DNA of 64,000 nucleotides, from positions 13,731 through 77,730 of the forward strand of contig CAYVWB010000010.1 in the NCBI GenBank assembly GCA_964455395.1, in the 5' to 3' direction. Made by a program: the position numbers and the translations under genes. Under the pieces are notes generated by a model, which was not told the origin of the DNA, did no database searches, and saw only the letters and a program-made list of their open reading frames with translations. Source of the stretch: an uncultured Desulfovibrionaceae bacterium (GTDB lineage Bacteria > Desulfobacterota > Desulfovibrionia > Desulfovibrionales > Desulfovibrionaceae). Below, one piece after another: positions 2,531-28,193 of the stretch (position 1 is its first letter; each line of letters opens with the position of its first letter).

Positions 2531-2594
2531 CGCCTGGCCTTTCGCCGCCGCGCGAGAAAGCCGTCGCCCATTCCGTGTATTTCACGCCTGGTTG

Positions 2595-2622
2595 TTGAAA
2601 AAAATCTGCGATCCCTTATGAT
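2595..2622 (+). promoter_or_regulatory. sigma70-like promoter candidate (TTGAAA-N16-TATGAT) upstream of bphO
   Basis: TTGAAA lies at 2595-2600 and TATGAT at 2617-2622 with a 16-nt spacer, inside an AT-rich patch of the 294-bp gap before bphO. This is a sequence match only. Confidence 0.35.
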
Positions 2623-2722
2623 GGTATTTGACGGGTACCGCCTCGTCGCGTCTGGTGTTCCCTGTCGTCCGGCAAACGCTCGCATCAGGCGACAGCCGCC
2701 TTCACGATGCGGTGGCCGAACC

Positions 2723-2767
2723 CCACGCCAACCACGCCAACCACGCCAACCACGCCAACCACGCCAA
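2723..2767. repeat. perfect tandem repeat (CCACGCCAA) x5
   Basis: Five identical 9-bp units were read directly at 2723-2731, 2732-2740, 2741-2749, 2750-2758 and 2759-2767, between the candidate promoter and the bphO ATG. Confidence 0.95.
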
Positions 2768-2824
2768 CAGGCCGCCACCAACCTGCACGCCGCGAGGGAG
2801 CTCCCCAGTTTGGAATACGCATTC

Positions 2825-5859: not shown

Positions 5860-6341
5860 ACTTTGTTCATGATTATATGTTCATGTGTAACCGGTGCAAT
5901 GCGATGCCTGACAAGACGCCCATCGTCCTTCTGGTGGAAGACAACCCGGACCACGCGCTGCTGACCCGGCGCGCTCTGGAAGACGTCACGCCCGCCGTGG
6001 AGTTCATCCACATCGCGGACGGCGACAAAGCCATGACCTTTCTGGAAGACCACGAAGCCGCGCCCTCGGCTCCCTGGCTCATCCTGCTGGATCTCCGGTT
6101 GCCGCGACGCAGCGGCTTCGAAGTGCTGGAGCGCCTCAAGCAGAACGAGTTCTGGCGGCGTGTTCCCGTGGTGATCTTCACTTCCTCCGAACGCGACGCG
6201 GATGTGGAGGAAGCTTTGCGCCTCTTCGCCAACAGTTACGTGGTCAAGCCTACGGATTTCAACAAGTTTCAGGAACTCATCCGCGCCATGGCGGAATATT
6301 GGCTGCAGTGGAGCAAGCTGCCCCACCAACAGAAGGCGTGA
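5856..6341 (+). CDS. single-domain response regulator (phytochrome-associated receiver)
   Basis: Receiver motifs IVLLVEDNPDHA, LILLDLRLP, VVIFTSS and VVKP. The ATG at 5856 overlaps the bphP stop (ATGA). An alternative start is the ATG at 5904 (MPDKTPIVLL). Confidence 0.85.
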   Translation: MNFVHDYMFMCNRCNAMPDKTPIVLLVEDNPDHALLTRRALEDVTPAVEFIHIADGDKAMTFLEDHEAAPSAPWLILLDLRLPRRSGFEVLERLKQNEFWRRVPVVIFTSSERDADVEEALRLFANSYVVKPTDFNKFQELIRAMAEYWLQWSKLPHQQKA

Positions 6342-6379
6342 GCTCCTCCATGCCTGCCCCCTTGTGAGCCCTCGATCCC

Positions 6380-10729: not shown

Positions 10730-10733
10730 GCCC

Positions 10734-15059: not shown

Positions 15060-15590
15060 CTAGCCGCAGGATTTTGTCCCGGCGAAGGCTTTCCACAGCA
15101 CCGAGCTGGAGAGGAAGGAAGACGCGTGGAAGGCCGCATCGAAGACGTCTGCGTCGGTCCAGCCGTGGCCGCGCAGTGTGTCAACATCCGCAGCGGAGAC
15201 AGCTTCGGGGTCTTCCAGCATCGAGAGGATGAAGAGGAAGAGCGCTTTGCGAGCGTCGTCCATCTCCACGGCTTCGGGGGTTTCGCGCAAGGCGCGGAGG
15301 TCGTCTTCCGTCATCATGGCGGCGGCCTGCAGGATGGAGCCGTTGAAGTCGTAGCAGAACTGGTAGCCGTAGCGGTGGGCCAGCACGTAGCGGGTCATGG
15401 CGAGAAGCTCCATGTCCAGCCGCGGATGGGCCATGAAGTACTGCATCAGCGAGGCCTGTCGGGACAGGATTTCCGGGGAGGCGGAGAAGAGGACCATGGG
15501 GTCCGGCACGGGGACGGCCGGGGGGAGCACGGCGTAGGCGTCGGCGATCTTGCCTTCTGCTTCATCTGGCGGGGTGTGGTTCAAGAGCAT
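15060..15590 (-). CDS. carboxymuconolactone decarboxylase / AhpD-like family protein
   Basis: 176 aa starting at MLLNHTPPDEAEG, with the SD AAGGAG upstream. The all-helical sequence and overall resemblance point to CMD/AhpD-like proteins, but no CxxC motif is seen. The assignment is tentative. Confidence 0.5.
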   Translation of the reverse strand: MLLNHTPPDEAEGKIADAYAVLPPAVPVPDPMVLFSASPEILSRQASLMQYFMAHPRLDMELLAMTRYVLAHRYGYQFCYDFNGSILQAAAMMTEDDLRALRETPEAVEMDDARKALFLFILSMLEDPEAVSAADVDTLRGHGWTDADVFDAAFHASSFLSSSVLWKAFAGTKSCG

Positions 15591-15823
15591 GGGGGCTCCT
15601 TGTGAGGGTCGGTGTTGAAGGGCGATTTCCTTCCCTAGCCTCTCGTGAGGAGGGAGGCAAGAGCGGCGCCTGACCGATTTCTCCTCCCTGCGAAGACGCT
15701 GCGCGCCATGGCGTTGCGGATGGCGGACGTGGTAGAATGACCGATGCCGACACCGGCGTTTCCTGCAGACCATCAACCGCCACGACCGCCGCTCGCAGCG
15801 CTGTCGGGCGAGGGAGGAACCCC

Positions 15824-16900: not shown

Positions 16901-16931
16901 AAACGCCGGCGGGGTCATTCCGTCGGCGTTT
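16901..16931 (+). terminator. hairpin terminator candidate after gap
   Basis: AAACGCCGGCGG-GGTCATT-CCGTCGGCGTTT (one mismatch), followed by a short T-rich stretch. Confidence 0.45.
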
Positions 16932-17034: not shown

Positions 17035-17367
17035 TCACGGATGACAGCTGAAATGTCGGCCCCAGTCGCCTGCGGCGGGGGCGGCGCCGCGGCGCACGTC
17101 GTCCAGAAAGGCGGTGTATTCGTCATAGGTCAATGCGCCGTCGCTGCCTGCGGCCGAGGTGAAGTAGCCCAGGCTGGAGAAACGGCAGACCACGCCGAAT
17201 TCCTCGGCGGTGACGGCGCCGTCGCCATCGTGGTCCATGGCTCTGAAACGGCCGATGCGTTGCGCCGCGGCGTTGGGGGTCAGCGGGCCCAGGCTGTGCG
17301 CCAGCATGAGGACGCCGACAAGCGCCAGCGACGTCGCGAGGTGGAGTAGTGGAAACGGGGTGCGCAT
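17035..17367 (-). CDS. secreted EF-hand calcium-binding protein
   Basis: Signal-peptide-like N-terminus (LLHLATSLALVGVLMLAHS). Two EF-hand loops are present: DHDGDGAVTAEEF and a degenerate second loop, GSDGALTYDEY. Confidence 0.65.
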   Translation of the reverse strand: MRTPFPLLHLATSLALVGVLMLAHSLGPLTPNAAAQRIGRFRAMDHDGDGAVTAEEFGVVCRFSSLGYFTSAAGSDGALTYDEYTAFLDDVRRGAAPAAGDWGRHFSCHP

Positions 17368-17460
17368 GCGTCATCCTACCACGACCATGCTGCGTTTCGA
17401 TGACAGCGCGTACGAGGACGCCGCGTACGATGAAAACGCGTGCGGGGACGCCGCAGGCTG

Positions 17461-20400
17461 CTACACGTCCGCAGCGGCGGTCTCGTCCTGGTCTTCGGGC
17501 GCAGTTTCGGCGTGGCGCGCCTTGCGGGCCTCGCGCCATTCGCGCAGCTGCTCCAGGATGTCCCACTCCACGGGGACGATGAAGAGCGTCAGCGCCGTGG
17601 CGGTGAACAGCCCCGTGACGAAGGTGGAGGCCATGGCGCCCCAGACGAGGGAATAGTCCGGAAAACCGATGGCCATGGGCAGCAACCCCAGGGAGGTGGT
17701 GAGCGTCGTCAGCAGGATGGGCCGCAGCCGCACCTGAACGCCTCGTCGGATGGCTTCCGCGCGGGAAGCTCCCTCCGCGCGCACACGATTCATGAAATCC
17801 ACCAGCACCAGGGAATCGTTCACCACCACGCCCGTGACACCCACCGTGGCGATGAAGCTGTTCACCGTGAAGAGCGACTGCGTCACCAGCTTGCCGAAGA
17901 CCACGCCGATGAGCGAAAACACCACCGCCGAAAGGATGATGAGTGGTTGCAGATAGCTGCGGAACTGGTTCGCCAATATAAGATAGATGAGCAGCACCGC
18001 GATGACGAAAGCGTACGCCAGGGACGCATACGACCGCTGCGTGGACTCGAAGTCCCCGCCGAATGCCACTTGCGCGCCGGGGTGTTCCGCTTTGATGGTT
18101 TGGTAGAAGGCTTTGATCTCGTTGACGATGACCGGTACGGAGACGTGCGCCGGCGCGCCGGGAGCGACATTCGCGCTGATGGTGACGGAGCGTTCGCCGT
18201 CGTAGCGGATGAGGTAGGCCGGCTCCGTGTAGGCTTCCAGCCGCGCCAGATCCCCCAGCCGCACGGGGCCGCTGGGGTGCTCCACCAGGGGGATGTTCAG
18301 CGCCATGTCCGGCGAGGTAAGGTACGCTGGCGAGAACCGCAGCTTCAGGTCCACATCCTCGTCCGTCAGGCGGTATTCGCCCACGTAGGCGCCGTCCAAC
18401 ACGCTGGCCGCCAGCCGAGCCACGCGGTCCGGCCGGATGCCGTACTCGGCGGCGCGGGCTTCGTCGATACGCAGATGATAGACGCGGTTGGGCTGCGCCG
18501 TGTCCGCGTTCAGCTCCGTCAAATGGGGCGCATAGCGCTCCGCATCGCGAATCCACCCGAGCAGGGCGTCGGCCAGGCTCTCCACGCTCTGGGGGTTCTG
18601 GCCCAGCACCCGCACGGAGAGGTCCTTGCCGCCGGGCGGGCCGCTCTTCTCCGCGCGCAGACGGTACGTCCAGCCCTCCTTGGCGAAGGCCTCCTTGACC
18701 CGCGTGCGCATGTTTTCCAGGTGGATGAGGGGGTCGTTGCCGGGGGCGTTGCGGAAGTCCTGCAACTCCTTGGCGGGCAAGGTGACAACCACGTAGCCGT
18801 AGTTGTCGCCGAAGACCATCTCGTAGTCCTCGTTCAGATAGAATCCCGCAAAGGCCAGCGCGCTTTCAGCCATGGAGGGGCCATCCGCCATGACGAACTC
18901 CGAAATGTCGCGCAGCGTGGCGGCCACCTCGGTGTTGGGTGTGGAAGCCGGGCCCTCGGCGATGATGTAGTAGAGGTTGTAGTCGTCCGGGAAGAACTTG
19001 ATGCGGATGAGCGGCGCCGCCCCCGTGATGGAAGCCGCCAGCATGCCGATGGCGGCCACGAACAGCACCAGCACCACCCCCAGGCTGAGGAACCGCCGGC
19101 GCAAGGTGAACCGCGTGATCCAGTTGGTGAACCGCCGGCACAAGGCGATGACGAAGTTGTCGCGGTCCTCGTCCGGGATCTTGCTGTGGCGGCGTGGACC
19201 GTGGGAGAGATAGTGGATGGGCAGGATGAAGAGGCATTCGAAGAGCGAGGCGATGAGCGCGAAGGTGATGGCGATGGGGATCTGCGCGAAGAACTCCCCT
19301 GTGGTCCCCGTCATGATGAGCATGGGAAGAAACGCTGCGCCCGTGGTGAGGGTGGCGCTCACCACGGGGAAGAACACCTCCGAAGCGCCGTTGACGATGG
19401 CTTCCCGCAGGGGCTCGCCTTCCTGCACGTGGCGGTAGATGTTCTCCACCACCACGATGGCGTCGTCCACGATGATCCCGGAGACGAGTACGAAGGAAAA
19501 GAGCGTGATTTCGTTGAGTGAATTCCCCGTGAAGTACATCAACGTCATGGTGACGAGGAAAGCGAAGGGGATGCCTACCGTGGTGAGCGCCGCATTGCGA
19601 AAGCCCATGAAATACCAGATGAGGAAAGCCACCAGCACGATGCCCACAAGCAGGTTCATGCCCAGAGTGGAGATGGCGTCCTTGATGTAGACGGTGGAGT
19701 CCTGGCTCAGCACCAGATCCACGCCTTCATCGGCGAGCCGGGGGCCGAAGCTCGCCGTCACCTCGGCCACGGCGTTCTTGATGTCCAGGGCGTTGCCGTT
19801 CTCCGTCTTGATGACTTGCAAGGAGACGGAAGGCCGACCGTTCACCGACGTGATGACAGAGGGGTCGCGGTAGTCCAGCACCGCCGCGCTGATGACGTCC
19901 TCCACCCGCACGAAGGAGCCGTCGCCGTCGCGCCGCACGATGGTCTCCACCACGTCCTGCCGGCTGCGGAAGCGTTCGTCCACCTTCACCACGAATTTGG
20001 CGGCTTGGGCGTCCCCCGTGGTGTAGTCCCCCGCAGGAATGGAGACGTTGGCGTGCGTCAGCGCGGAGACCACATCGTCGTAGGTCACGCCGAGGCGCGT
20101 CATCTTCTCCGGGTCCAGATAGACATGGAACTCGCGCTCGTACTCGCCTTGCAGCTTCACCTCCTGCACGCCGGGGATCTGCCGCAAGGCTATCTTCATC
20201 TCCTCCGCCATCAGGGAGAGCGCGCGGTTGGAGCGGTCCCCCGCCAGATTCACGGCCACCACGGGGAGCCAGTCCGAGGTCTCGATGTTGGTGAACTCGG
20301 GCGGATCGATGCCGTCAGGCAAGTCCTGCAGGATGGAGAGCACCTGGAAGCGCAGCTCGTCATAGAGGCGCTCGTACTCCGAGTCGTCCACGAATTTCAC

Positions 20401-20679
20401 GAGGATGGAGCTGGACTCCTGATAGGAGGTGGAGCGGATGAACTCCACGTCCTCCACATCCTCCAGCGCATCCTCGATCTTGTTGGTGATGAGCGTCTCC
20501 ACTTCTTCAGCGGAAGCGCCCGGATAGACCGTGGTGATGACCACCTTGCCGAAGTTGATGAGGGGGTAGCGCTCGATGGGCATGGCCACCAAGGCGTACG
20601 CTCCCACCACCATCAACAGCACGAAGACGAGATTGAACAGGACCTGTTGCTGCAGGGAGTATTCGACGACAGCTTTCAC
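17461..20679 (-). CDS. RND (AcrB/AcrD/AcrF family) inner-membrane efflux transporter
   Basis: 1072 aa. The N-terminus (SLQQQVLFNLVFVLLMVVG...ERYP) and the 12-TM, two-large-loop layout are typical of ACR_tran proteins. Confidence 0.9.
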   Translation of the reverse strand: MKAVVEYSLQQQVLFNLVFVLLMVVGAYALVAMPIERYPLINFGKVVITTVYPGASAEEVETLITNKIEDALEDVEDVEFIRSTSYQESSSILVKFVDDSEYERLYDELRFQVLSILQDLPDGIDPPEFTNIETSDWLPVVAVNLAGDRSNRALSLMAEEMKIALRQIPGVQEVKLQGEYEREFHVYLDPEKMTRLGVTYDDVVSALTHANVSIPAGDYTTGDAQAAKFVVKVDERFRSRQDVVETIVRRDGDGSFVRVEDVISAAVLDYRDPSVITSVNGRPSVSLQVIKTENGNALDIKNAVAEVTASFGPRLADEGVDLVLSQDSTVYIKDAISTLGMNLLVGIVLVAFLIWYFMGFRNAALTTVGIPFAFLVTMTLMYFTGNSLNEITLFSFVLVSGIIVDDAIVVVENIYRHVQEGEPLREAIVNGASEVFFPVVSATLTTGAAFLPMLIMTGTTGEFFAQIPIAITFALIASLFECLFILPIHYLSHGPRRHSKIPDEDRDNFVIALCRRFTNWITRFTLRRRFLSLGVVLVLFVAAIGMLAASITGAAPLIRIKFFPDDYNLYYIIAEGPASTPNTEVAATLRDISEFVMADGPSMAESALAFAGFYLNEDYEMVFGDNYGYVVVTLPAKELQDFRNAPGNDPLIHLENMRTRVKEAFAKEGWTYRLRAEKSGPPGGKDLSVRVLGQNPQSVESLADALLGWIRDAERYAPHLTELNADTAQPNRVYHLRIDEARAAEYGIRPDRVARLAASVLDGAYVGEYRLTDEDVDLKLRFSPAYLTSPDMALNIPLVEHPSGPVRLGDLARLEAYTEPAYLIRYDGERSVTISANVAPGAPAHVSVPVIVNEIKAFYQTIKAEHPGAQVAFGGDFESTQRSYASLAYAFVIAVLLIYLILANQFRSYLQPLIILSAVVFSLIGVVFGKLVTQSLFTVNSFIATVGVTGVVVNDSLVLVDFMNRVRAEGASRAEAIRRGVQVRLRPILLTTLTTSLGLLPMAIGFPDYSLVWGAMASTFVTGLFTATALTLFIVPVEWDILEQLREWREARKARHAETAPEDQDETAAADV

Positions 20680-20824
20680 GCAAGGCCTCCGACGAGTCGC
20701 GGCTGGCGGTTCGGGCTCATGAGCTCAACCTCCAACTCCTACCCCATTCCTGCCGGAAAGGGAACTCGCATTCACGTGAACTGTCGCAGGAATCCGAAGC
20801 GAAGCCAGTCTGGCGCGCCACCAC

Positions 20825-21298
20825 TCAGCGCAGCTGAAACGCCAGAAACGGCGTCACCGCCAGACGCCCCAGGGTCAGCCACCGCTGGTGCGGCGTCACC
20901 CGCGGGAGGAACTCCGGAACCGGCGCCCACGTCACGGCCAGCGCCATGACCCACGCCGCCGTGACGTCTCCCGCCAACACGCCGAAGAAGCTCCCCACGA
21001 ACGCCAAGCCGCACCCGAACGCCAACAACAGCTTCGTCACCAGAAAGAGAATGGCCACGGCGTGACGCGTCTCCAGCGCCGAAGCGAGCAGGAAGAGGAC
21101 CGCCAGCGTCACCCACACCCACCACTCCTCCTCCTGATACCCCGAGGTCGACAGCGGGATCAGCGTGATGAGCGCAAGCGCATACCATGTGGAGCGGTAC
21201 GCCCATCGCTCCAGCAGGCTGAACACCAGATGCGTTTCCACCTGACGCGCCAGCCACGGGGCTTCCAGAAGCGCATGGAGACGATGAAACGGATGCAT
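20825..21298 (-). CDS. small integral membrane protein, unknown function
   Basis: 157 aa with about 4 hydrophobic spans. It sits 27 nt downstream of the UbiA gene on the same strand. No recognisable motif. Confidence 0.5.
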   Translation of the reverse strand: MHPFHRLHALLEAPWLARQVETHLVFSLLERWAYRSTWYALALITLIPLSTSGYQEEEWWVWVTLAVLFLLASALETRHAVAILFLVTKLLLAFGCGLAFVGSFFGVLAGDVTAAWVMALAVTWAPVPEFLPRVTPHQRWLTLGRLAVTPFLAFQLR

Positions 21299-21325
21299 GG
21301 CGGCGCCAGACGAAAGAGCAGAGGG

Positions 21326-22231
21326 TTACATGACAGCGCCCAGGATATACCCAAGCGCATAGAGTGCAATCATCAGCGTCATCAACAGCATGTACCGCAG
21401 CTGGGCCCCCGCCGAATGCGCGATGTCTCCCAGCGTGAACACCATGGCGAGGAGCAGGGCGAGGCATCCCCCCTGGAAGGCCCCGGCCCACGGCCCCTGC
21501 CACGGGGTGAACAGCACGGAGCTGGACACCGCGCCGAACGCCAGGACAAGAGCCGTTCCTGCCGCAAAACGCACGCCGCCCATGGTGGCCACGGTGCGCT
21601 TGCCTGCGTCACGGTCTGCGGGGACATCCGGCAAGGAGGTGGCGATGCTGCTACAGGTGTGGAGGATCATGAAAGGAATGAGCAGAAGCCAGGGGAATTC
21701 GCCAAAGCCGTCGGCTTGGGCGTAATAGGCCATCACGGGGAGCAGGCCGCCGCAGCCCAGACCTTGCAAGAGTTCACCGCCGCCGCGATAGTTCAGCCGC
21801 CACGGCGGAGCGCTGTACAGCGCGATCAGCATGAGCCCCCCGAGGGCCATGGGAAGAAAGAGCGGTCGGCCAAGCCAAGTGACGACCCCGGCAAGGCACA
21901 GCACCCCCGCTGCAGCGTAGACGCCAGCGCGCTTCAGCTGTGCTGGCGTCAAGTCGCCGTCGGGCAGCACGCGGGAGCCCCCGGAAAACATGGTGTATCC
22001 TGTGTTGATGGCGTCGGCTTCGCGGTCGAAGTAGTCGTTCCAGAAGACGATGGCCAGCTGCTGCGCCCAGCCGTAGAGCATGACGAGCAGGAAGATATCC
22101 CACCGGATGGCGCCTGTGTCGGCATAGGCCAGCGCTTGGCCCAGCAGCAACGGCAGGACAAGATTGATGTTGGAAGGCGGACGGGACGCCTTCAGCCACA
22201 CCCGCAGCTCGGAACGGGGGGTGACGCTCAT
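21326..22231 (-). CDS. UbiA-family prenyltransferase
   Basis: Start MSVTPRSELRVWLKASRPPS. It carries the Asp-rich motif NDYFDREAD and multiple TM segments. The ATG overlaps the upstream stop (ATGA at 22228-22231). Confidence 0.8.
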   Translation of the reverse strand: MSVTPRSELRVWLKASRPPSNINLVLPLLLGQALAYADTGAIRWDIFLLVMLYGWAQQLAIVFWNDYFDREADAINTGYTMFSGGSRVLPDGDLTPAQLKRAGVYAAAGVLCLAGVVTWLGRPLFLPMALGGLMLIALYSAPPWRLNYRGGGELLQGLGCGGLLPVMAYYAQADGFGEFPWLLLIPFMILHTCSSIATSLPDVPADRDAGKRTVATMGGVRFAAGTALVLAFGAVSSSVLFTPWQGPWAGAFQGGCLALLLAMVFTLGDIAHSAGAQLRYMLLMTLMIALYALGYILGAVM

Positions 22232-24606
22232 GGGCTCTCCTGTGGGTTGGATGATCGCGACAGCCGACGCACTTCGCCGGACTGCCCGTCCACGCGGAGG
22301 ATGTCGCCGTTGGTGAAGCGGGTCACGGCGTCGGGAACGCCGGTGACGCAAGGGACGCCGTACTCACGCGCGATGATGGCGCCGTGCACCAGCATGCCGC
22401 CGCGTCGCTCCACGATGGCCGCAGCCAGCGGCGCCACGAAGGTCATGGCGGGGTCCACGGAGTCGCAGACCAGCACCTCCCCTTCGCGCAAGTCGAAGAG
22501 ATCGCCGCGGCGGCGCACCACGCGAGCCGGCCCCTCGGCCACGCCAGCGCTGGCCGGCTGACCGTGGACGACATCGCCCCCGGCGGTGGACATGCCGTTG
22601 CGGGCGCGCGCTTCCCGGCGGCGCGTCTCCAGCCGTTCCCGCAGGGCGGCGCGGCCCCGCAGCACGGCGGCCACGTCCTCAGGGGTGAGCAGCGCCAAGG
22701 CGCGTTGTGTGTTGCGTTTTGCATCAAGCATGTCTGCTGCATGGCGGAAAGCCATGGCGCCTTCGGAGGAAGCACGGGTGTCACGGATGGTAAACGAGTC
22801 GCCTGACTGTGTTTTCTTGTTCTCGATGATGGCGCTTGATGTGGTGCGATGTGCATCAGCGTGGTTCCGCAGACGCCGTCTTCCCTCACTCACGGCGTCC
22901 AGCAGTGCGGCCTCCACACGACCGAGAGCGAAGTTGTCGTCATCGCGGAGACGGAACGCCGCGCGCGCCAGATCCAGCAGTTCATGAGCGAAGGGCTGTT
23001 CCTCCTCGGAGAAAGCGGAGAAATAGCGAGATTCCAGGGATTCCCGGGAAAGGGAGCGGGACGGACGTGTGACGCGGTCGCTGGCGGCCATCCGGGCAAG
23101 CAGTTGCAACAGGGCGTGCTCGCCCTCCTCACACCACGCCTCATGACATGTCAGCGCCCCGAAATCATCCATGAAGTCGTCAAGTTCCCTGGTGAAGTCC
23201 ATGTCTGCGGCGGGGCGTTCGCCCGCTGCGGCCCGTTCTCTGGCGGTGGGGTTTTCCCGCAGGTGTTCGGCCAGCGCATGGAGCGCATTGTTGCGGCGTA
23301 CGCCTTCCAGCTGCTGGCCTGCAAGAAGATCCCTGAAGGCGAATGGGTCCTCGGGCTGCACGCGGTCGTTGTAGATCTGTCCGAAAAGCCGCACAGCGTG
23401 CGCAAGGGGCACACATTCCTCATAATAACGAGTCTTCCAGTGCTCGAAGGCGGCGCGGCGGTGGTCTATCTCTTCGGCCAACTCCTGGTCATCCAGGTCG
23501 GCGGGATGCAGCTCCACGAGTTCGGCTGCGGCGTCCTCCATGGCGGGCATCAATTCCTCCTCCACAGTGGCGCGGAGGCGTTTGAGTTGCGTGAAGCCGC
23601 GACGCAGGGAGAGCTCCCAGGGACGGCGGTCCTTGCGTTCCCAGGGGGCGCGCGGGTCTTCGTCGCCATTGCCGGCAGTGGTCTTGGAGGCGTCGCCCAG
23701 GGTGGTGATGGGTCGCGCCTGGAGCATGATGAAGTCGTCGCGCAGAAGCCACTCGATATCCGCGGGGCGCCCCAGGGCTTCCTCCCCCGTGAGGCACAGC
23801 CGGGCGAGCCGGCGGCGTTCATCCTCGGAGAGCGGGGGCGAGGCGTCCGAGGCCGGCGCGGCATGGTCGAGAAGGGCGAAGTCCTCACGGTCCAGCACCC
23901 AGCGCTCCGGCTCGACCTCCCCGGAAACCAGCGCCTCCCCTGCGCCGGCGTGCGCTTCAATGACGAGGCCTTGCGGCGCCGAGGCGTCTCCCATGGGATT
24001 GCGCGTGAAGCAGACGCCGGCGGCGCGGCCTTCGAGCATGGGGTGCACGAGACCGGCCATGGCGCTCGATTCCTGGTTGAGGCCCAACTCTCGGCGGTAG
24101 AGCAGCGCGCGGTCCGACCAGAGCGAGGCGAAGAGCGCCGGCAGCGTCGCCAGGAAATCGTCCGCATCGCGCACGTTCAAAAAGGAGTCGTGGAGGCCGG
24201 CGAAGGAGCCCCCGGCTGCGTCCTCGGCGGTGCTGGAGGATCGCAGCGCCAGTGGGTACAGTTCGGTGAAGCGCGTCCCGGCGTGGTCCAGGGCGCGGCG
24301 CAAGGCTGTGGCCACGTCCTCCGGCAGGGGGGCGCGCATGAAGCGGTTGCGGAGATCCAGGCTCAGGTCCCAGACGGCTTCCCACCGCATGGCGCGCAGG
24401 TCTTGCGCCAAGGCGTTGGCGATCACCTCGTCGAGGGTGTTGGCGGTGACAAAACGGCGGTAAGCCGCCGTGGTGACGACGAAGCCGTGATGGACCGGCA
24501 ACCCGGCTGTCGCCAGCGCGACGAGGCCGACGGCCTTGCCGCCCACGCGTTGCGCCAGGTCCTCTTCGAGTGAGAGGTCATCGGTCCAGAGCGTATAGGC
24601 TTCCAT
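22228..24606 (-). CDS. PEP-utilising-enzyme-like phosphotransferase (N-terminal PPDK_N ATP-grasp plus C-terminal swivel-His domain, no TIM-barrel domain)
   Basis: N-terminus VGGKAVGLVAL...LRSSSTAEDAAGGSFAGLHDSFLNV matches the pyruvate phosphate dikinase ATP-grasp domain. The extreme C-terminus GQPASAGVAEGPARVV...VERRGGMLVHGAIIAREYGVPCVTGV matches the mobile phosphohistidine domain. This layout resembles rifampin-phosphotransferase-like enzymes rather than PpsA. Confidence 0.75.
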   Translation of the reverse strand: MEAYTLWTDDLSLEEDLAQRVGGKAVGLVALATAGLPVHHGFVVTTAAYRRFVTANTLDEVIANALAQDLRAMRWEAVWDLSLDLRNRFMRAPLPEDVATALRRALDHAGTRFTELYPLALRSSSTAEDAAGGSFAGLHDSFLNVRDADDFLATLPALFASLWSDRALLYRRELGLNQESSAMAGLVHPMLEGRAAGVCFTRNPMGDASAPQGLVIEAHAGAGEALVSGEVEPERWVLDREDFALLDHAAPASDASPPLSEDERRRLARLCLTGEEALGRPADIEWLLRDDFIMLQARPITTLGDASKTTAGNGDEDPRAPWERKDRRPWELSLRRGFTQLKRLRATVEEELMPAMEDAAAELVELHPADLDDQELAEEIDHRRAAFEHWKTRYYEECVPLAHAVRLFGQIYNDRVQPEDPFAFRDLLAGQQLEGVRRNNALHALAEHLRENPTARERAAAGERPAADMDFTRELDDFMDDFGALTCHEAWCEEGEHALLQLLARMAASDRVTRPSRSLSRESLESRYFSAFSEEEQPFAHELLDLARAAFRLRDDDNFALGRVEAALLDAVSEGRRRLRNHADAHRTTSSAIIENKKTQSGDSFTIRDTRASSEGAMAFRHAADMLDAKRNTQRALALLTPEDVAAVLRGRAALRERLETRRREARARNGMSTAGGDVVHGQPASAGVAEGPARVVRRRGDLFDLREGEVLVCDSVDPAMTFVAPLAAAIVERRGGMLVHGAIIAREYGVPCVTGVPDAVTRFTNGDILRVDGQSGEVRRLSRSSNPQESP

Positions 24607-24609
24607 GGC

Positions 24610-25641
24610 TCAGTCCTGGAGGCGGAACCGGTCGCCAGCCCGGACGTTCGGCGCCGTGACGCGCACAAGACCGTCGGGGCCTTCACCGAGGAGAACCACC
24701 TTGAATTCCTCGCCGTCCTCGCGCGTTGCCCAGTATTCATCGTAGCGGCGTTGGAGCGTTTCGGGCGGCAGAAGGACGGTGTCGCGTGCGTCGGGAATCC
24801 GCATGGCGAGGGTGACGCGGCGTCCGCCCCGACGAACGGCGTCCTGCGCGGGGATCTCCAGTTCCACATGAATCTTGCGGGTTTCGGGGTTGAACCCGGG
24901 GGAGATGCGGCCCACGCTGGCGGTCACTTGTCCGGGTGGTTCCGTGGCGTCCGGCATGGTGAGGGCGATGGGGCCACGCTGGTTCATGAGCCACTCGTAT
25001 TCTTCCGGGGTGAGGGCGAACGGGACCACCAGGGTCCGGAAATCGCCGAGTTCACCCAGGGGTTCGCCCACGTTCACCCACTCGCCGGGTTCGATGCGCC
25101 GTTCCATCACGGTCCAGCCGGGAGGGGCGTTGATGACGAAGCGCGCGCGCTGTTCCTCCAGGCGTTCCTGTTCCACCTGGAGCGCGTCCAGCTGGTGTCG
25201 GGCTTCTTCCAGTTGGAGCTGCAGCTCGTCAAGCTGCGCCTGGGCGGCGCTGTCCCGGGTGACGAGCTCCTGATAGCGACGGGTTTCCTTGGTGAAGTAG
25301 GCGATGTTGGAGCGGAGCCGCGCTTGTTCCACCAGCACTTTTTCCAGGTCGAGGCGGGTGAAGGTGTCGTCCAGCACAGCGTAGACGCCCGTCCGACTGA
25401 TGACGTCGCCGACGTCTGCGCGCACCTCCAGCACCTTGCCGGCGAGTTCGCTGACCAGTGTCATGACGGCGCCGGCGCGGGTGAAGCCCACCAGGGTGAC
25501 GCTGCGGGTGGAGGGCTGGGCCGTCGCCACTGGGTGTGGTTCTGCTGCGGCGGCGTGGGGAGTTGGCGCCACGAAGCAGCTCAAGCAAAGGAGCAGCGTG
25601 GATCCAAGCACGGTCAGGCGAAGTGGTGTGGTCGTGGGCAT
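24610..25641 (-). CDS. RND efflux periplasmic adaptor (HlyD/MFP family)
   Basis: Signal peptide, a coiled-coil hairpin (QAQLDELQLQLEEARHQLDALQVEQERLEEQ), and barrel-like flanks. The stop is 3 nt from the next ATG. Confidence 0.8.
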   Translation of the reverse strand: MPTTTPLRLTVLGSTLLLCLSCFVAPTPHAAAAEPHPVATAQPSTRSVTLVGFTRAGAVMTLVSELAGKVLEVRADVGDVISRTGVYAVLDDTFTRLDLEKVLVEQARLRSNIAYFTKETRRYQELVTRDSAAQAQLDELQLQLEEARHQLDALQVEQERLEEQRARFVINAPPGWTVMERRIEPGEWVNVGEPLGELGDFRTLVVPFALTPEEYEWLMNQRGPIALTMPDATEPPGQVTASVGRISPGFNPETRKIHVELEIPAQDAVRRGGRRVTLAMRIPDARDTVLLPPETLQRRYDEYWATREDGEEFKVVLLGEGPDGLVRVTAPNVRAGDRFRLQD

Positions 25642-25686: not shown

Positions 25687-25719
25687 AAAAAAGGGGAACG
25701 GCCGGGTGGGCCGCTCCCC
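25687..25719 (-). terminator. intrinsic terminator after pnp
   Basis: The minus strand reads GGGGAGCGGCC-CACCC-GGCCGTTCCCC followed by T6. Confidence 0.7.
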
Positions 25720-25740
25720 CTTGGGATGCGCAGGGTGCGA

Positions 25741-28011
25741 TCAGTCGTTGCGGTCGCCGCGGCCGCCGCCTCCGCCGCTGCGAGGTGGTCTGCGGTCGCC
25801 GCCGCGGTCGCCGCCGCGTGGGCCCCTGTCATCACGCCGCGGGCCACGGGGTCCGCCGCGTCCACCCCCGCCACGGGGCGGCGAGTCTTTGAACTCGATG
25901 CCTTGTTCTTCGGCAAGGACAGCTGCGCGGGAGAGGCGCATCTTTCCGTTATCCAGCACTTCCAGACACTTGACCTTCAGATTCTCGCCCAGCTTGGCCA
26001 CGTCGGAGACTTTCTCCACACGCTCCAGGTCGAGTTGGGAGATGTGGACAAGCCCCTCGACGCCGGGAAGGATCTCCACGATGGCGCCGATCTCCAGCAG
26101 CTTCTTCACGGGGCCTTCATAGATCTTGCCGACTTCAGGCCTCTGGTCGTAGTGGAGGACCATGGCCTTGGCTTGCTCCATGGCTTCCTTGGAAGGCGCG
26201 AAGATGGAGACTTTGCCGGAGTCCTCGATGTCCACGTCAGCGCCGGTTTCCGCAGTGATCTGCTTGATGTGCTTGCCGCCGGGTCCAATGACCATGCGGA
26301 TGACATCCGGGTTGACGTGCACGATCTCCAGCTGGGGCGCGTTGTCGGAGAGTTCCGGTCGCGGCGCGTCGAGGACCTTGGCCATTTCGCCGAGGATGTG
26401 CAGCCGTGCGTCGCGTGCTTGGGAAAGCGCGCGGGCCATGACTTCTGGCGGAATGCCGGCGATCTTGATGTCCATCTGGAACGCGGTGACGCCTTCCGCA
26501 GTGCCGGCGATCTTGAAGTCCATGTCGCCGAGGGCGTCCTCGTCGCCGAGGATGTCGGTCAACACGAAGTAATCATCGTCTTCCTTGATGAGCCCCATGG
26601 CGATGCCCGCCACCGGCGCGGAGACCGGCACGCCGGCGTCCATGAGCGCCAAGGAAGCGCCACAGACCGTGGCCATGGAGGAGGAGCCGTTGGACTCCAT
26701 GATTTCCGAGACCACGCGCATGGTGAAGGGAAAGCTCTCGGCGTCTGGCAAGGTGGGGGTGATGGCCCGTTCCGCCAGGTTGCCGTGGCCGATTTCCCGC
26801 CGGGAGACGCGCAGCATCTTGATCTCGCCCACACAATAGGGCGGGAAGTTGTAGTGCAGCATGAAGCGCTTGTTCTCATCGCCCATCAGGGTCTCCACAC
26901 GCTGTTCGTCGCGTCCGGAGCCCAAGGTGGCCACGCAGAGCGTCTTGGTCTCGCCGCGGGCGAAGATGGTGGAGCCATGGGTGCGGGGCAGGGGGCTCAC
27001 GTCGATGGTGATGCCGCGCACGGTGGTGAGATCGCGGCCGTCGATGCGGATCTGCTCTTCCTTGATGCGCTTGCGGACGATCTCCTTTTCAAGCGCGCCC
27101 AGCATGTCGCCCACGGTTTTCAGCCGCTCGGGGGCTTCGGCGAAACGCGGGTCCGCTTCGATGGCTTCCTTCATTTTGGCTTTCACGGCGCTGCGGGCTT
27201 CCTTGCGGGCCATCTTGTCGCGCACGGCCAGGGCTTGGATGAGCTCCTCCGTGGCGAGGGCCGCCACGGCTTCCTTGAGCTCCGTGTCCTCAGGCGGAGG
27301 GACGAACTCCATCTTCTCCTTGCCCAGCAGATCGCGCAGCTCTTCCTGCTTGTCCAACATGGGCTGGATGGCTTTGTGGCCCCAGTCGATGGCTGCCGCC
27401 ATGATGTCGTGGGGGATGAACTCCGCGGAACCCTCCACCATCACCACGGCGTCGCGGGAGGCGGCCAGCACCATGTTCAGGTCGGCTTTCTCCAATTCTT
27501 CGTTGAGGGGGTTGAGCACGAAGTCGCCGTCGATGCGCGCCACACGCGCTGCAGCGATGGGACCGTAGAAAGGGATCTTGGAGAGGTGCAGCGCAGCCGA
27601 AGCCCCCGTGACGGCGAGCACGTCCGGGTCGTTCTCCTGATCGGCGGAGAGCACGGTGGCGATGACCTGGACTTCGTCGCGGAAACCCTTGGGGAAGAGG
27701 GGCCGGATGGGCCGGTCGATGAGGCGGGAGCAGAGCGTCTCCCGTTCGCTGGGGCGGCCCATCTCGCGGCGGAAGAAGGAGCCGGGCACACGGCCGGCGG
27801 CGTACATCTTCTCCTGGTAGTCCACCACCAGAGGGAAGAAGCTGATGTCGCGCTCCAGCTTCTGCGTGACCACGGTGACAAGGACGACAGTGCCGCCGGA
27901 CTGAATCCAGACAGCGCCGTCAGCTTGGTTGGCGAGTCGGCCTGTCTCCAGGATGATCTCGCGGCCTTCGGCGTTGATGACGAGTTGGGTGCGTTCGAAG
28001 TTGGATTCCAT
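25741..28011 (-). CDS. pnp: polyribonucleotide nucleotidyltransferase (PNPase) with Arg/Gly-rich C-terminal tail
   Basis: Start MESNFERTQLVINAEGREIILETGRLANQADGAV. It has two RNase PH-like halves, a KH domain (VIGPGGKHIKQI) and an S1 domain (GAIVEILPGVEGLVHISQL), plus a 47-aa RGG tail. Confidence 0.95.
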   Translation of the reverse strand: MESNFERTQLVINAEGREIILETGRLANQADGAVWIQSGGTVVLVTVVTQKLERDISFFPLVVDYQEKMYAAGRVPGSFFRREMGRPSERETLCSRLIDRPIRPLFPKGFRDEVQVIATVLSADQENDPDVLAVTGASAALHLSKIPFYGPIAAARVARIDGDFVLNPLNEELEKADLNMVLAASRDAVVMVEGSAEFIPHDIMAAAIDWGHKAIQPMLDKQEELRDLLGKEKMEFVPPPEDTELKEAVAALATEELIQALAVRDKMARKEARSAVKAKMKEAIEADPRFAEAPERLKTVGDMLGALEKEIVRKRIKEEQIRIDGRDLTTVRGITIDVSPLPRTHGSTIFARGETKTLCVATLGSGRDEQRVETLMGDENKRFMLHYNFPPYCVGEIKMLRVSRREIGHGNLAERAITPTLPDAESFPFTMRVVSEIMESNGSSSMATVCGASLALMDAGVPVSAPVAGIAMGLIKEDDDYFVLTDILGDEDALGDMDFKIAGTAEGVTAFQMDIKIAGIPPEVMARALSQARDARLHILGEMAKVLDAPRPELSDNAPQLEIVHVNPDVIRMVIGPGGKHIKQITAETGADVDIEDSGKVSIFAPSKEAMEQAKAMVLHYDQRPEVGKIYEGPVKKLLEIGAIVEILPGVEGLVHISQLDLERVEKVSDVAKLGENLKVKCLEVLDNGKMRLSRAAVLAEEQGIEFKDSPPRGGGGRGGPRGPRRDDRGPRGGDRGGDRRPPRSGGGGGRGDRND

Positions 28012-28138
28012 GGAATCTCCGGGGTGTGCGCGTTTCCGCGCCTGTTCCCGCAATCTGAAGCTGTCCCGATGTGGGGGGGTGGGTCGGGCCAGAGCCAGAT
28101 TGCGCGAGAGGCGCGCGGACGCAGGGTGGGTGGAAGAA

Positions 28139-28172
28139 CGCGGCCGCAGCCAGCCGGCCCGGCTGCGGCGCG
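28139..28172 (-). promoter_or_regulatory. GC-rich hairpin between rpsO and pnp (terminator/attenuator or RNase III site candidate)
   Basis: Near-perfect inverted repeat CGCGCCGCAGCC...GGCTGCGGCCGCG on the minus strand, followed by TTCTTCC. Its position matches the rpsO-pnp leader hairpin known in E. coli. Confidence 0.4.
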
Positions 28173-28193
28173 TTTTCGGCAAGGGGGTTGACG

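What the first reader, a model, noticed from the sequence alone, without database searches (positions are those of the whole stretch)
17035..25641. RND pump and its membrane-fusion partner split by a swivel-His phosphotransferase, a UbiA prenyltransferase and a small membrane protein
All six genes lie on the minus strand, in this order:
- MFP/HlyD adaptor (24610-25641)
- PPDK_N ATP-grasp plus C-terminal phosphohistidine swivel domain protein (22228-24606)
- UbiA prenyltransferase with NDYFDREAD (21326-22231)
- 4-TM protein (20825-21298)
- AcrB-type RND transporter (17461-20679)
- secreted EF-hand protein (17035-17367)

The junctions are tight. The MFP stop is 3 nt from the next ATG, the phosphotransferase and UbiA genes share an ATGA overlap, and 27 nt separate the UbiA and membrane-protein genes. 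The operon begins right after the pnp terminator.

Adaptor and pump genes are normally adjacent, so three intervening enzyme or membrane genes are unusual. The kinase-like protein ends with its swivel-His domain and has no room for the PEP/pyruvate TIM-barrel domain. It is therefore not a standard PpsA. Its layout resembles small-molecule phosphotransferases such as rifampin phosphotransferase.

The arrangement suggests that a phosphorylated and/or prenylated membrane metabolite is made and then exported or inserted by a dedicated RND system, by analogy with HpnN or MmpL lipid transporters. That is inference only. No outer-membrane factor gene is present.
Basis: partly seen in the sequence, partly recalled or inferred. 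Interest (0 to 1): 0.65.

Follow-up and report, generated by a model that had tools for sequence, protein, structure and literature searches.

The report
Efflux operon split by kinase–prenyltransferase pair
In one small group of sulfate-reducing bacteria, an otherwise ordinary efflux-pump gene pair has been split by a rifampin-phosphotransferase-like kinase gene and a lipid-tail-adding (prenyltransferase) gene, which hints at an undescribed membrane metabolite pathway that no experiment has yet tested.

Summary
All six minus-strand genes, their domains and their tight junctions are as described. The kinase-like protein is a three-domain small-molecule dikinase (ATP-grasp, all-helical substrate domain, C-terminal swivel-His) with no TIM barrel. 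Its best whole-protein fold match is rifampin phosphotransferase, but it fails every curated equivalog cut-off.

The order MFP–kinase–UbiA–RND–EF-hand protein, just downstream of pnp, is conserved in Oceanidesulfovibrio (kinase 44–50% identical, RND 74%). It was not found elsewhere:
- 0 of 80 loci of the wider kinase family have UbiA or MFP nearby. Those kinases pair with a PNPOx-type gene instead.
- 0 of 80 loci of the UbiA subfamily have RND or MFP nearby.
- Orthologues of this pump elsewhere sit in ordinary TetR–MFP–RND operons with a 3-nt junction.

The split is therefore a derived, lineage-specific insertion into a standard AcrB-type pump, and the pump is not an HpnN/MmpL-like lipid transporter. 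Two independent UbiA–kinase adjacencies in soda-lake contigs give modest support for a functional kinase–UbiA link. The idea that a prenylated or phosphorylated product is exported remains inference. I rate it a new variant of a known kind, of moderate interest.

The parts
25687..25720 (-). Intrinsic-terminator-like hairpin plus T6 after pnp. It marks the upstream boundary of the cluster.
   Evidence: Read directly from the sequence: GGGGGAGCGGCC-CACC-CGGCCGTTCCCC followed by TTTTTT, 45 nt upstream of the MFP ATG.
24610..25641 (-). Periplasmic adaptor (membrane-fusion protein), 343 aa, with a signal peptide and a coiled-coil hairpin.
   Evidence: Pfam HlyD_3 and HlyD_D23. TIGR01730 scores 92.0 bits against a cut-off of 94.9. 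Best PDB matches are MexJ and TriA/B. It is 62-64% identical to the Oceanidesulfovibrio orthologue and 45-48% identical to adaptors that directly abut RND orthologues in Desulfocurvus and a Solemya symbiont.
22228..24606 (-). RPH-type small-molecule dikinase, 792 aa. It has an ATP-grasp domain (about 1-300), an all-helical putative substrate domain (about 338-670, with a 50-aa lineage-specific insertion at 590-639) and a swivel domain with His741.
   Evidence: Pfam PPDK_N plus PEP-utilizers. All NCBIfam hits fall far below their cut-offs. AlphaFold2 model: pLDDT 85, pTM 0.82. Foldseek top hit 5HV1, E = 2e-31. His741 in GGML.HGAIIAREYG is invariant across 40 family members. Insertion mapped.
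21326..22231 (-). MenA-like UbiA-superfamily prenyltransferase, 301 aa, translationally coupled to the kinase gene by an ATGA overlap.
   Evidence: Pfam UbiA 93.7 bits. The best NCBIfam hits are MenA models, but at 62.7 bits against a cut-off of 277. Both Asp-rich motifs are intact and the subfamily motifs FSGGSRVL and NYRGGGELLQ are present. The ATGA overlap was read directly and is conserved in L003.
20825..21298 (-). Small hydrophobic membrane protein, 157 aa. It is specific to the window and absent from the Oceanidesulfovibrio cluster.
   Evidence: No Pfam or NCBIfam hit. Coding-like composition: GC3 0.84, best frame on codon usage. It has 43 weak full-length relatives of 160-180 aa among 1.84 billion representatives. 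It is not related to Lycopene_cyc. There is no counterpart in L001 or L003.
20676..20824 (-). The 145-nt spacer between the 4-TM and RND genes (20680-20824), together with a 14-codon uORF (20720-20676) that overlaps the RND GTG start. A possible internal regulatory or promoter region.
   Evidence: Read directly from the sequence. No Rfam match and no sigma-70-like consensus site. Its function was not tested.
17461..20679 (-). AcrB-type RND permease, 1072 aa, with a GTG start.
   Evidence: ACR_tran 587.8 bits. Best PDB matches are HAE1 pumps at about 1e-70. The VDDAIVVVEN (D405/D406) and RLRP motifs are present. It is 74-75% identical to the Oceanidesulfovibrio orthologue and about 60% identical to orthologues in several phyla.
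17035..17367 (-). Secreted EF-hand protein, 110 aa, with a conserved C-terminal WGRHF[ST]CHP.
   Evidence: EF-hand_5/1/6 score just above or near their Pfam cut-offs. It is 50-53% identical to the 101-aa protein at the same position in Oceanidesulfovibrio. It is absent downstream of the pump in L091-L093.
16902..16931 (.). Inverted repeat between the convergent EF-hand and GAPDH genes, probably the downstream boundary of the cluster.
   Evidence: Read directly from the sequence: AAACGCCGACGG-AATGACC-CCGCCGGCGTTT, with one mismatch. That it acts as a terminator is inference.

Best explanation
**What the locus is**

This is a lineage-specific operon. It was found only in the window's organism and in Oceanidesulfovibrio. 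A translationally coupled gene pair was inserted between the adaptor and pump genes of an otherwise ordinary, widely conserved AcrB-type MFP-RND efflux pair. The inserted pair consists of an RPH-type small-molecule dikinase and a MenA-like UbiA prenyltransferase.

Relative to related pump operons, this lineage lacks the TetR gene and has an added periplasmic EF-hand protein. The window alone also carries a small membrane protein.

**Proposed mechanism**
1. The cytoplasmic dikinase binds ATP in its ATP-grasp domain and transfers the beta-phosphate to His741 on the swivel domain.
2. It then delivers that phosphate to a hydroxyl on a hydrophobic, probably aromatic or phenolic, small molecule held in the helical domain.
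3. The membrane-embedded UbiA enzyme attaches a prenyl chain to the same aromatic scaffold at the cytoplasmic face of the inner membrane.
4. The resulting amphipathic prenylated (phospho-)aromatic is picked up from the membrane or periplasm by the RND/MFP complex. It is then passed outward through an outer-membrane channel encoded elsewhere.

**What is shown and what is inferred**
- Shown: the domain architectures, the intact catalytic motifs, the conserved gene order and junctions, and the derived nature of the insertion.
- Inferred: the nature of the substrate, the order of the two reactions, co-transcription, and any link between the enzymes and the pump.
For: - **Architecture and motifs:** establish the domains and intact catalytic motifs. 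One search shows the RND proton-relay motifs.
- **Conserved cluster:** MFP-KIN-UbiA-RND-EF sits behind pnp in Oceanidesulfovibrio indonesiensis and a Logan MAG, with the KIN/UbiA ATGA overlap retained. This holds although the kinase is only 44-50% identical and the downstream flank is rearranged. In O. marinus the UbiA and RND orthologues are listed with the same longest-contig length, which suggests one contig. In an Oceanidesulfovibrio MAG the same holds for the kinase and UbiA.
- **Ancestral state:** TetR-MFP-RND with a 3-nt junction occurs in Desulfocurvus and a Solemya symbiont.
- **Independent pairing:** two further UbiA-then-kinase adjacencies, from different subclades and in a different gene order, occur in soda-lake contigs L136 and L170. 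They suggest the two enzyme families can work together.
- **Substrate class:** characterised relatives of the kinase act on hydrophobic or phenolic hydroxyls. Examples are RPH, PpsAB, CreHI and HpeHI (PMC12167813, PMC4844700). The nearest UbiA relatives are MenA, UBIAD1 and ChlG, which act on ring-type acceptors.
- **Divergence:** the kinase clade is a divergent branch. It is 41% identical to the rest of the family, against 52% within the rest. That fits a change of role after the PNPOx partner was lost.
Against: - There is no experimental data and no transcript evidence.
- The cluster is known from only one lineage, so conserved order could simply be inherited.
- The pump's orthologues elsewhere, at about 60% identity, sit in generic TetR-MFP-RND operons. 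Nothing in its sequence marks it as a dedicated lipid or metabolite exporter.
- A 145-nt spacer (79 nt in Oceanidesulfovibrio) before the RND gene could hold an independent promoter.
- The central-domain residues that are invariant across the wider PNPOx-linked family are retained here. The kinase may therefore still act on that family's unknown usual substrate and not on a UbiA-related one.
- Kinase-UbiA pairing is rare: 2 of 80 UbiA loci and 0 of 80 kinase loci.
Confidence: 0.4

Rival explanations
1. Hitch-hiking insertion. The kinase-UbiA cassette landed in the 3-nt MFP/RND junction of a generic efflux operon and is merely co-transcribed with it. The pump remains a general efflux pump, and the two enzymes do an unrelated job, for example making or modifying an intracellular or membrane cofactor.
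For: - Orthologous pumps elsewhere are ordinary TetR-MFP-RND pairs.
- The RND (74%) and MFP (62%) are much better conserved than the kinase and UbiA (about 50%), as expected if their constraints are unrelated.
- Neither enzyme family associates with RND or MFP anywhere else: 0 of 80 in each survey.
- The spacer before the RND gene could hold its own promoter.
Against: - The arrangement has survived a divergence in which the kinase fell to 44-50% identity and the downstream flank was rearranged.
- Relative to related pump operons, the same lineage also lacks the TetR gene and has an EF-hand periplasmic protein. This looks like remodelling of the whole locus and not a single neutral insertion.
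Confidence: 0.35
2. Detoxification module. The dikinase inactivates a toxic hydrophobic or phenolic compound or antibiotic by phosphorylation, as RPH does with rifampin. The RND pump then expels the compound or its phosphate ester. UbiA plays an accessory or unrelated role.
For: - The best full-length structural match is rifampin phosphotransferase.
- RPH belongs to a broad dikinase family, some members of which act on antibiotics (PMC4844700, cited through PMC12167813).
- The pump is of the multidrug (HAE1-like) type.
Against: - The protein fails the RPH equivalog model by a wide margin: 239.5 bits against a cut-off of 999. Only the ATP-grasp part aligns.
- The kinase family is a conserved, vertically widespread family in anaerobes and methanogens, with a fixed PNPOx partner. 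That points to an endogenous substrate.
- The tight ATGA coupling to a prenyltransferase has no precedent in resistance determinants (my own knowledge).
Confidence: 0.15
3. Quinone or cofactor variant. The UbiA enzyme is a MenA paralogue that makes a menaquinone-like prenylquinol. The dikinase phosphorylates or salvages an intermediate. The pump link is incidental.
For: - The best NCBIfam hits are MenA models.
- UBIAD1 is among the three PDB sequence hits, all weak; chlorophyll synthase scores best.
- Both Asp-rich motifs are intact.
Against: - The scores are far below the MenA cut-offs: 62.7 bits against 277.
- Elsewhere the subfamily pairs with a second UbiA, an unknown soluble protein and Lycopene_cyc-like proteins, not with men genes.
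- No men or isoprenoid genes are in the window.
Confidence: 0.1

Closest known systems
Rifampin phosphotransferase (RPH, e.g. Listeria RPH-Lm, PDB 5HV1/5FBS)
   Same: It has the same three-domain order: an N-terminal ATP-grasp, a helical small-molecule-binding domain and a C-terminal swivel domain carrying the catalytic His. It is the best full-length Foldseek match (E = 2e-31). The presumed chemistry is also the same: ATP + X-OH + H2O gives AMP + Pi + X-O-P.
   Different: Identity is only about 20%, and only the ATP-grasp and swivel parts align by sequence. It scores 239.5 bits against the equivalog cut-off of 999. It is about 75 residues shorter than RPH. It belongs to a separate, large family from anaerobes, and its substrate is unknown.
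Phenol-type dikinases PpsAB, CreHI and HpeHI (phenylphosphate synthase family)
   Same: They share the swivel-His dikinase mechanism on hydrophobic phenolic acceptors. The HpeI ATP-grasp domain (PDB 9GOJ) is a fold match. HpeH resembles the RIF-binding and swivel domains of RPH (PMC12167813).
   Different: Those enzymes are two-component and catabolic, and they sit beside carboxylase or catabolic genes. This protein is a single fused chain, coupled to a prenyltransferase inside an efflux operon.
TetR-MFP-RND efflux operons of the same RND subfamily (e.g. Desulfocurvus sp. DL9XJH121 and the Solemya gill symbiont)
   Same: The adaptor (45-48% identical) and the pump (60% identical) are orthologous. 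Neither locus has an adjacent OMF gene.
   Different: In those operons the adaptor and pump genes are 3 nt apart behind a TetR (CecR_C) regulator. Here they are separated by 3.9 kb (3.2 kb in Oceanidesulfovibrio) of enzyme genes, the TetR is missing, and an EF-hand protein gene follows the pump.
MenA / UBIAD1 / chlorophyll synthase branch of the UbiA superfamily
   Same: It has the membrane prenyltransferase fold, both Asp-rich motifs and a YS.PP..L.Y.GGGE-type motif. These are the best NCBIfam and PDB hits.
   Different: It falls far below every equivalog cut-off. It has its own signatures, FSGGSRVL and NYRGGGELLQ. Its usual partners elsewhere are a second UbiA, an unknown 250-aa protein and Lycopene_cyc-like proteins.
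RND transporters embedded in lipid biosynthetic clusters (HpnN in hopanoid clusters, MmpL in mycobacterial lipid loci)
   Same: The concept is the same: an RND transporter encoded beside enzymes that make a membrane lipid, which it then moves outward.
   Different: Those transporters belong to different RND families and work without an AcrA-type adaptor. This pump is AcrB-type with an adaptor. It scores 17.5 bits on HpnN against a cut-off of 751.85.

Membership tests
Rifamycin-inactivating phosphotransferase (RPH) | Three-domain architecture: ATP-grasp, helical substrate-binding domain, C-terminal swivel-His domain | tested here: met
   Pfam PPDK_N at residues 19-310 and PEP-utilizers at 707-777. 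The AlphaFold2 model shows a helical domain at 338-670. Foldseek gives 5HV1 over the full length, E = 2e-31.
Rifamycin-inactivating phosphotransferase (RPH) | Passes the curated equivalog model (NF041857, cut-off 999 bits; NF000283, cut-off 1700 bits) | tested here: not met
   The scores are 239.5 and 154.5 bits, and the best-scoring stretch in each is the ATP-grasp region.
Rifamycin-inactivating phosphotransferase (RPH) | Phosphorylates rifamycins and confers resistance | not testable with these tools
   This needs an enzyme assay or MIC testing.
PEP synthase / pyruvate phosphate dikinase | C-terminal PEP/pyruvate-binding TIM-barrel domain | tested here: not met
   The protein ends with the swivel domain at residue 792. 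There is no PEP-utilizers_C hit and no beta/alpha barrel in the model. It scores 255 bits against a cut-off of 598 for NF005057.
Small-molecule (swivel-His) dikinase superfamily | ATP-grasp nucleotide domain plus a phosphocarrier His in a GG...H swivel motif | tested here: met
   His741 in RGGMLVHGAIIAREYG is invariant in 40 family members, together with K24, R122, E128 and D129 of the ATP-grasp domain.
UbiA prenyltransferase superfamily | Pfam UbiA above the gathering score, and two Asp-rich motifs (NDxxDxxxD and DxxxD) | tested here: met
   It scores 93.7 bits against a cut-off of 34.2. N65-D66, D69, D73, D202 and D206 are invariant in the subfamily alignment.
MenA (1,4-dihydroxy-2-naphthoate polyprenyltransferase) | Passes a MenA equivalog model | tested here: not met
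   The best score is 62.7 bits against a cut-off of 277 (NF004749). The window protein did not hit TIGR00751 at all.
RND permease, AcrB/HAE1 type | Full-length ACR_tran domain and the TM4 Asp-Asp / TM11 Arg proton-relay motifs | tested here: met
   ACR_tran 587.8 bits over residues 5-1037. VDDAIVVVEN at 405-406 and RLRP at 984. It falls below the NCBIfam multidrug subfamily cut-off, at 495.6 bits against 1250, so it is a divergent subfamily.
HpnN / MmpL-type lipid RND transporters | Passes the HpnN model, or has MMPL as its principal domain; works without an AcrA-type adaptor | tested here: not met
   HpnN scores 17.5 bits against a cut-off of 751.85. MMPL gives only a 22.8-bit partial hit that lies under ACR_tran. 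An AcrA-type adaptor gene is part of the cluster.
RND periplasmic adaptor (MFP) | HlyD-type barrel-sandwich and beta-barrel domains plus a coiled-coil hairpin | tested here: met
   HlyD_3 scores 52.4 bits against 22.2, and HlyD_D23 scores 32.1 against 30. TIGR01730 scores 92.0, just under its cut-off of 94.9. MexJ and TriA/B are the best PDB hits.
EF-hand calcium-binding proteins | Canonical 12-residue DxDxDG...E loop | tested here: met
   EF-hand_5 scores 27.9 bits against 25.9, and EF-hand_1 scores 25.7 against 25.4, on the loop DHDGDGAVTAEE. It is not a lanmodulin: 21.4 bits against a cut-off of 135.

The most novel reading that the evidence does not exclude
The cluster encodes a self-contained pathway in Oceanidesulfovibrio-like sulfate reducers. 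The pathway would build a previously unknown prenylated aryl-phosphate (or similar phospho-prenyl) envelope lipid or signal molecule and hand it directly to a dedicated AcrB-type tripartite pump. This would be the first case of an RPH-type dikinase working with a UbiA prenyltransferase. It would also be the first substrate clue for a very large uncharacterised dikinase family in anaerobic bacteria and methanogens.
Probability: 0.2. Interest if true: 0.7.

Novelty: new variant of a known kind. Interest (0 to 1): 0.4.

Why it matters
If the three functions are truly linked, the locus defines a new route for making and exporting a prenylated, possibly phosphorylated, membrane metabolite in sulfate-reducing bacteria. 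It would also give the first functional lead on a dikinase family with thousands of members in anaerobes and methanogens, for which I found no characterised substrate. Oceanidesulfovibrio species are named in NCBI and carry the same cluster, so if isolates are available (I did not check this) the hypothesis can be tested directly. If the link is only an insertion accident, the locus is a tidy example of operon remodelling and has little wider consequence.

Tried and rejected
1. **Is the 4-TM protein a diverged Lycopene_cyc-type protein?** Such a gene lies next to UbiA in 28 of 80 metagenomic loci, often directly downstream. hhalign gave probability 0.2% and hmmsearch was not significant, so I rejected this.
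2. **Is the 4-TM ORF spurious?** I rejected this too. GC3 is 0.84, its own frame scores best on codon usage, and it has 43 weak full-length relatives. It matches no Pfam family.
3. **Known RNA elements or riboswitches in the cluster:** Rfam finds only a distant tRNA.
4. **Sigma-70 promoter scan:** no sites. The terminator-like sites found within the ORFs are fewer than expected by chance, so the scan is uninformative.
5. **Genome-collection scan with the kinase alignment:** The organism remains unidentified, and the scan samples only the wider family.
6. **Structure prediction of the X250 partner of the UbiA subfamily:** X250 has no PDB, Pfam or NCBIfam match.
7. **Literature searches** for UbiA + RND + PEP-synthase-like, and for UbiA + lycopene cyclase clusters, found nothing specific.
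8. **Heavy-metal (CusF-like) reading of the EF-hand/CHP protein and pump:** I considered this, but the pump scores higher on multidrug-type models than on CusA/CzcA models. I did not pursue it.

Full report
**1. Observation**

Pfam confirms the domain assignments:

| Gene | Coordinates | Pfam result |
|---|---|---|
| Adaptor (MFP) | 24610-25641 | HlyD_3, HlyD_D23 |
| Kinase-like | 22228-24606 | PPDK_N (residues 19-310) and PEP-utilizers (707-777), nothing between them |
| UbiA | 21326-22231 | UbiA |
| 4-TM protein | 20825-21298 | no family |
| RND | 17461-20679 | ACR_tran, 588 bits |
| EF-hand protein | 17035-17367 | single EF-hand loop, just above cut-off |
| Upstream gene | 25741-28182 | pnp |

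The junctions read as follows:
- MFP to kinase: TGA-GCC-ATG, a 3-nt gap.
- Kinase to UbiA: an ATGA overlap.
- UbiA to 4-TM: 27 nt.
- 4-TM to RND: 145 nt. The RND start is GTG.
- RND to EF-hand gene: 93 nt.

A hairpin followed by T6 sits between pnp and the adaptor ATG. All six ORFs have coding-type GC3 (0.80-0.88), and each scores best in its annotated frame.

The rest of the window is ordinary chromosomal core sequence:
- the rimP-nusA-infB-DHH-truB-rpsO-pnp block
- flagellar genes
- Tol-Pal-like genes
- two-component systems

None of the window ORFs I scanned is an OMF, TetR or isoprenoid gene.

**2. The kinase-like protein**

Every NCBIfam hit falls far below its cut-off, and only the ATP-grasp and swivel parts align:

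| Model | Score (bits) | Cut-off (bits) |
|---|---|---|
| PEP synthase | 255 | 598 |
| RPH | 239.5 | 999 |
| PigC | 207 | 1300 |

PDB sequence search gives the same picture, with no match for residues 310-680.

An AlphaFold2 model built on 40 homologues is confident (pLDDT 85, pTM 0.82). It shows an ATP-grasp domain, an all-helical central domain (about 338-670) and a C-terminal swivel domain. There is no beta/alpha barrel.

Foldseek ranks Listeria rifampin phosphotransferase first over the full length (5HV1, E = 2e-31). Matches to PEP synthase and to HpeI cover only the ATP-grasp domain.

His741 in the RGGMLVHGAIIAREYG motif is invariant across the family. So is a set of polar residues in the central domain: R328, H403, R406, N413, R438, N439, R554, D555, D557 and N558.

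The literature describes RPH as one member of a broad family of small-molecule dikinases. Its characterised relatives phosphorylate rifampin or phenolic compounds, namely PpsAB, CreHI and HpeHI (PMC12167813, PMC4844700). It is not an RPH orthologue.

**3. Is the arrangement conserved?**

Yes, but only narrowly. The same order occurs in Oceanidesulfovibrio indonesiensis and in a related Logan MAG: pnp, adaptor, kinase, UbiA, RND, then a 101-aa protein. The 4-nt kinase/UbiA overlap is retained there.

Identities to the window proteins are:

| Protein | Identity (%) |
|---|---|
| PNPase | 78 |
| RND | 74-75 |
| Adaptor (MFP) | 62-64 |
| EF-hand protein | 50-53 |
| UbiA | 52 |
| Kinase | 44-50 |

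The 4-TM gene is absent there; the UbiA-RND gap is only 79 nt. The downstream flank also differs, with hemC in Oceanidesulfovibrio and GAPDH in the window.

In O. marinus the UbiA and RND orthologues are listed with the same longest-contig length, which suggests one contig. The same holds for the kinase and UbiA in an Oceanidesulfovibrio MAG.

Outside this lineage the combination disappears:
- A 43%-identical kinase in Desulfohalovibrio stands alone.
- In 80 genome loci of the wider kinase family (36-42% identity), none has UbiA or an adaptor within 10 kb, and one has a weak distant RND hit. The family spans Desulfobacterota, Methanosarcinales, Anaerolineales and Holophagae.
- In 80 metagenomic loci of the UbiA subfamily, none has RND or an adaptor.

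**4. The split is derived**

The RND belongs to a subfamily that is about 60% identical across Desulfobacterota and gammaproteobacterial symbionts. In Desulfocurvus sp. DL9XJH121 and in the Solemya gill symbiont, the order is a TetR (CecR_C) gene, an adaptor (45-48% identical to the window's) and the pump (60% identical). The adaptor-pump junction there is 3 nt.

Relative to those operons, the window/Oceanidesulfovibrio lineage differs in three ways:
- It has the kinase-UbiA pair between the adaptor and pump genes.
- It lacks the TetR gene.
- It has the EF-hand protein gene downstream.

The window alone also has the 4-TM gene.

The pump itself is AcrB/HAE1-like. MexK, AcrB and TriC are its best PDB matches, the proton-relay motifs are intact, and HpnN scores 17.5 bits against a cut-off of 751.85. 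The HpnN/MmpL analogy therefore holds only as a concept, not as family membership.

**5. What the two enzyme families do elsewhere**

*Kinase family.* In the wider family, 54 of 80 loci carry a clustered PNPOx_N-type gene of about 150 aa within 4 kb of the kinase, usually directly upstream on the same strand. By tblastn the count is 76 of 80. About half the loci also carry photolyase, DPRP, SDR-DUF2867 or DUF523-DUF1722 genes, and a few carry DUF1365-CFA or DUF1295 genes. None of these genes is in the window.

The window/Oceanidesulfovibrio kinases form a divergent branch. They are 41% identical to the rest of the family, against 52% within the rest. The window protein also has a 50-residue insertion at 590-639.

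*UbiA subfamily.* Its motifs are FSGGSRVL and NYRGGGELLQ. Elsewhere it sits beside one or more of these partners:
- a second UbiA of about 315 aa
- an unknown soluble protein of about 250 aa
- a Lycopene_cyc-like membrane protein

*Independent pairing.* In two soda-lake contigs the UbiA gene is followed by a kinase-family gene. L136 has a full-length gene and L170 a swivel-only ORF. Both the kinase and the UbiA there belong to different subclades from the window's, and the gene order is reversed. This is a second, independent kinase-UbiA association. It gives modest support to the idea that the two enzymes can work on a common substrate.

**6. Mechanism**

*Shown*
- A fused swivel-His dikinase with all family-invariant residues.
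- A UbiA enzyme with both Asp-rich motifs.
- An AcrB-type pump with an intact proton relay.
- An adaptor with a coiled-coil hairpin.
- A conserved, tightly packed gene order.

*Inferred*
- The dikinase phosphorylates a hydroxyl of a hydrophobic, probably aromatic, molecule by way of His741~P.
- UbiA prenylates the same scaffold at the cytoplasmic face of the inner membrane.
- The amphipathic product is taken up by the RND/adaptor complex and passed to an outer-membrane channel encoded elsewhere.

I put this at about 0.4. The rivals are:
- neutral co-transcription after an insertion, with unrelated functions (0.35)
- a phosphorylate-and-expel detoxification module (0.15)
- a MenA-paralogue quinone variant (0.1)

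Three points weigh against a dedicated exporter. The pump's orthologues elsewhere are generic. Neither enzyme family is ever linked to RND genes in other lineages. The retained central-domain invariants suggest the kinase may keep the wider family's unknown substrate.

**7. Novelty and verdict**

Every part belongs to a known superfamily. The combination, and the splitting of an adaptor/pump pair by enzyme genes, has no described counterpart that I could find. It is confined to one lineage and has no functional data. I rate it a new variant of a known kind, with interest 0.4.

The most useful by-product is the recognition that the kinase belongs to a very large uncharacterised dikinase family with a fixed PNPOx partner. 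Named Oceanidesulfovibrio species carry the same cluster and could be used to test the hypothesis.

Noticed in passing
L011-L090 (genome loci of the wider kinase family), e.g. L056:5184-5639, L013:13823-15364, L020:4055-5005, L043:12651-14204: The dikinase family of about 720-750 aa is widespread in anaerobes, including Desulfobacterota, Methanosarcinales, Anaerolineales and Holophagae. A PNPOx_N-type gene of about 150 aa accompanies it in 54 of 80 loci by neighbour clustering, usually directly upstream on the same strand, and in 76 of 80 by tblastn. About half the loci also carry photolyase, DPRP, SDR-DUF2867 or DUF523-DUF1722 genes. This looks like an uncharacterised conserved module, possibly tied to light or UV stress or to flavin chemistry.
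   Followed up: partly
L005, L008, L010 and L094-L173, e.g. L010:8302-10900 and L008:8332-11618: The window's UbiA subfamily recurs in a cluster UbiA(315 aa)-unknown soluble protein (about 250 aa)-UbiA(300 aa), often alongside a Lycopene_cyc-like (PF18916) membrane protein. The 250-aa protein has no Pfam, NCBIfam or PDB match, although many of its residues are invariant. This is probably an undescribed prenyl-lipid or terpenoid pathway.
   Followed up: partly
L136:1419-4391 and L170:3463-11605 (soda-lake sediment contigs): Here the UbiA gene is followed by a kinase-family gene: full-length in L136 and a swivel-only ORF in L170. In L170 it lies next to a divergent DUF1295 / FAD-oxidase / DUF1365-CFA synthase / PNPOx / SDR-DUF2867 cluster; the shorter L136 contig shows only DUF1295 and a partial CFA-synthase hit. 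This kinase-UbiA association is independent of the one in the window.
   Followed up: partly
window 20676-20720 (-): A 14-codon uORF (ATG at 20720) ends in a TGA that overlaps the GTG start of the RND gene (GTGA). It lies inside the 145-nt spacer, which has no counterpart in Oceanidesulfovibrio. It could be translational coupling or mere chance.
   Followed up: no
window 17035-17367 (-); L003:16446-16751; L001:16438-16743: The secreted EF-hand protein has a strictly conserved C-terminal WGRHF[S/T]CHP motif, a possible Cys/His metal site. It occurs only downstream of the pump in this lineage. It gives a weak sub-threshold hit to lanmodulin, which reflects only the EF-hand loops.
   Followed up: partly
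window 17461-20679 (-); L091-L093: This RND subfamily is unusually conserved, at about 60% identity from Desulfobacterota to gammaproteobacterial chemosynthetic symbionts. It usually sits behind a TetR with a CecR_C domain and has no adjacent OMF gene. That suggests a specific conserved substrate, which is unknown.
   Followed up: partly
window 44-8104 (+): A bacteriophytochrome histidine kinase (PAS_2-GAF-PHY-HisKA-HATPase, 3112-5859) is flanked by a GAF/PAS hybrid kinase with an Hpt domain (44-2530), a single-domain response regulator (5856-6341) and another hybrid kinase (6380-8104). This is a light-sensing phosphorelay in what appears to be a sulfate reducer.
   Followed up: no
window 22690-22839 (-), kinase residues 590-639: The window kinase carries a 50-residue insertion in the helical domain that is absent from all 39 aligned relatives, including Oceanidesulfovibrio. 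Part of it has low pLDDT.
   Followed up: no
window 10638-14375 (+): This is a 1245-aa AAA_27/SMC-like ATPase of unknown role. The neighbouring ORF at 15060-15776 (-) has no Pfam match and overlaps the annotated GAPDH start.
   Followed up: no
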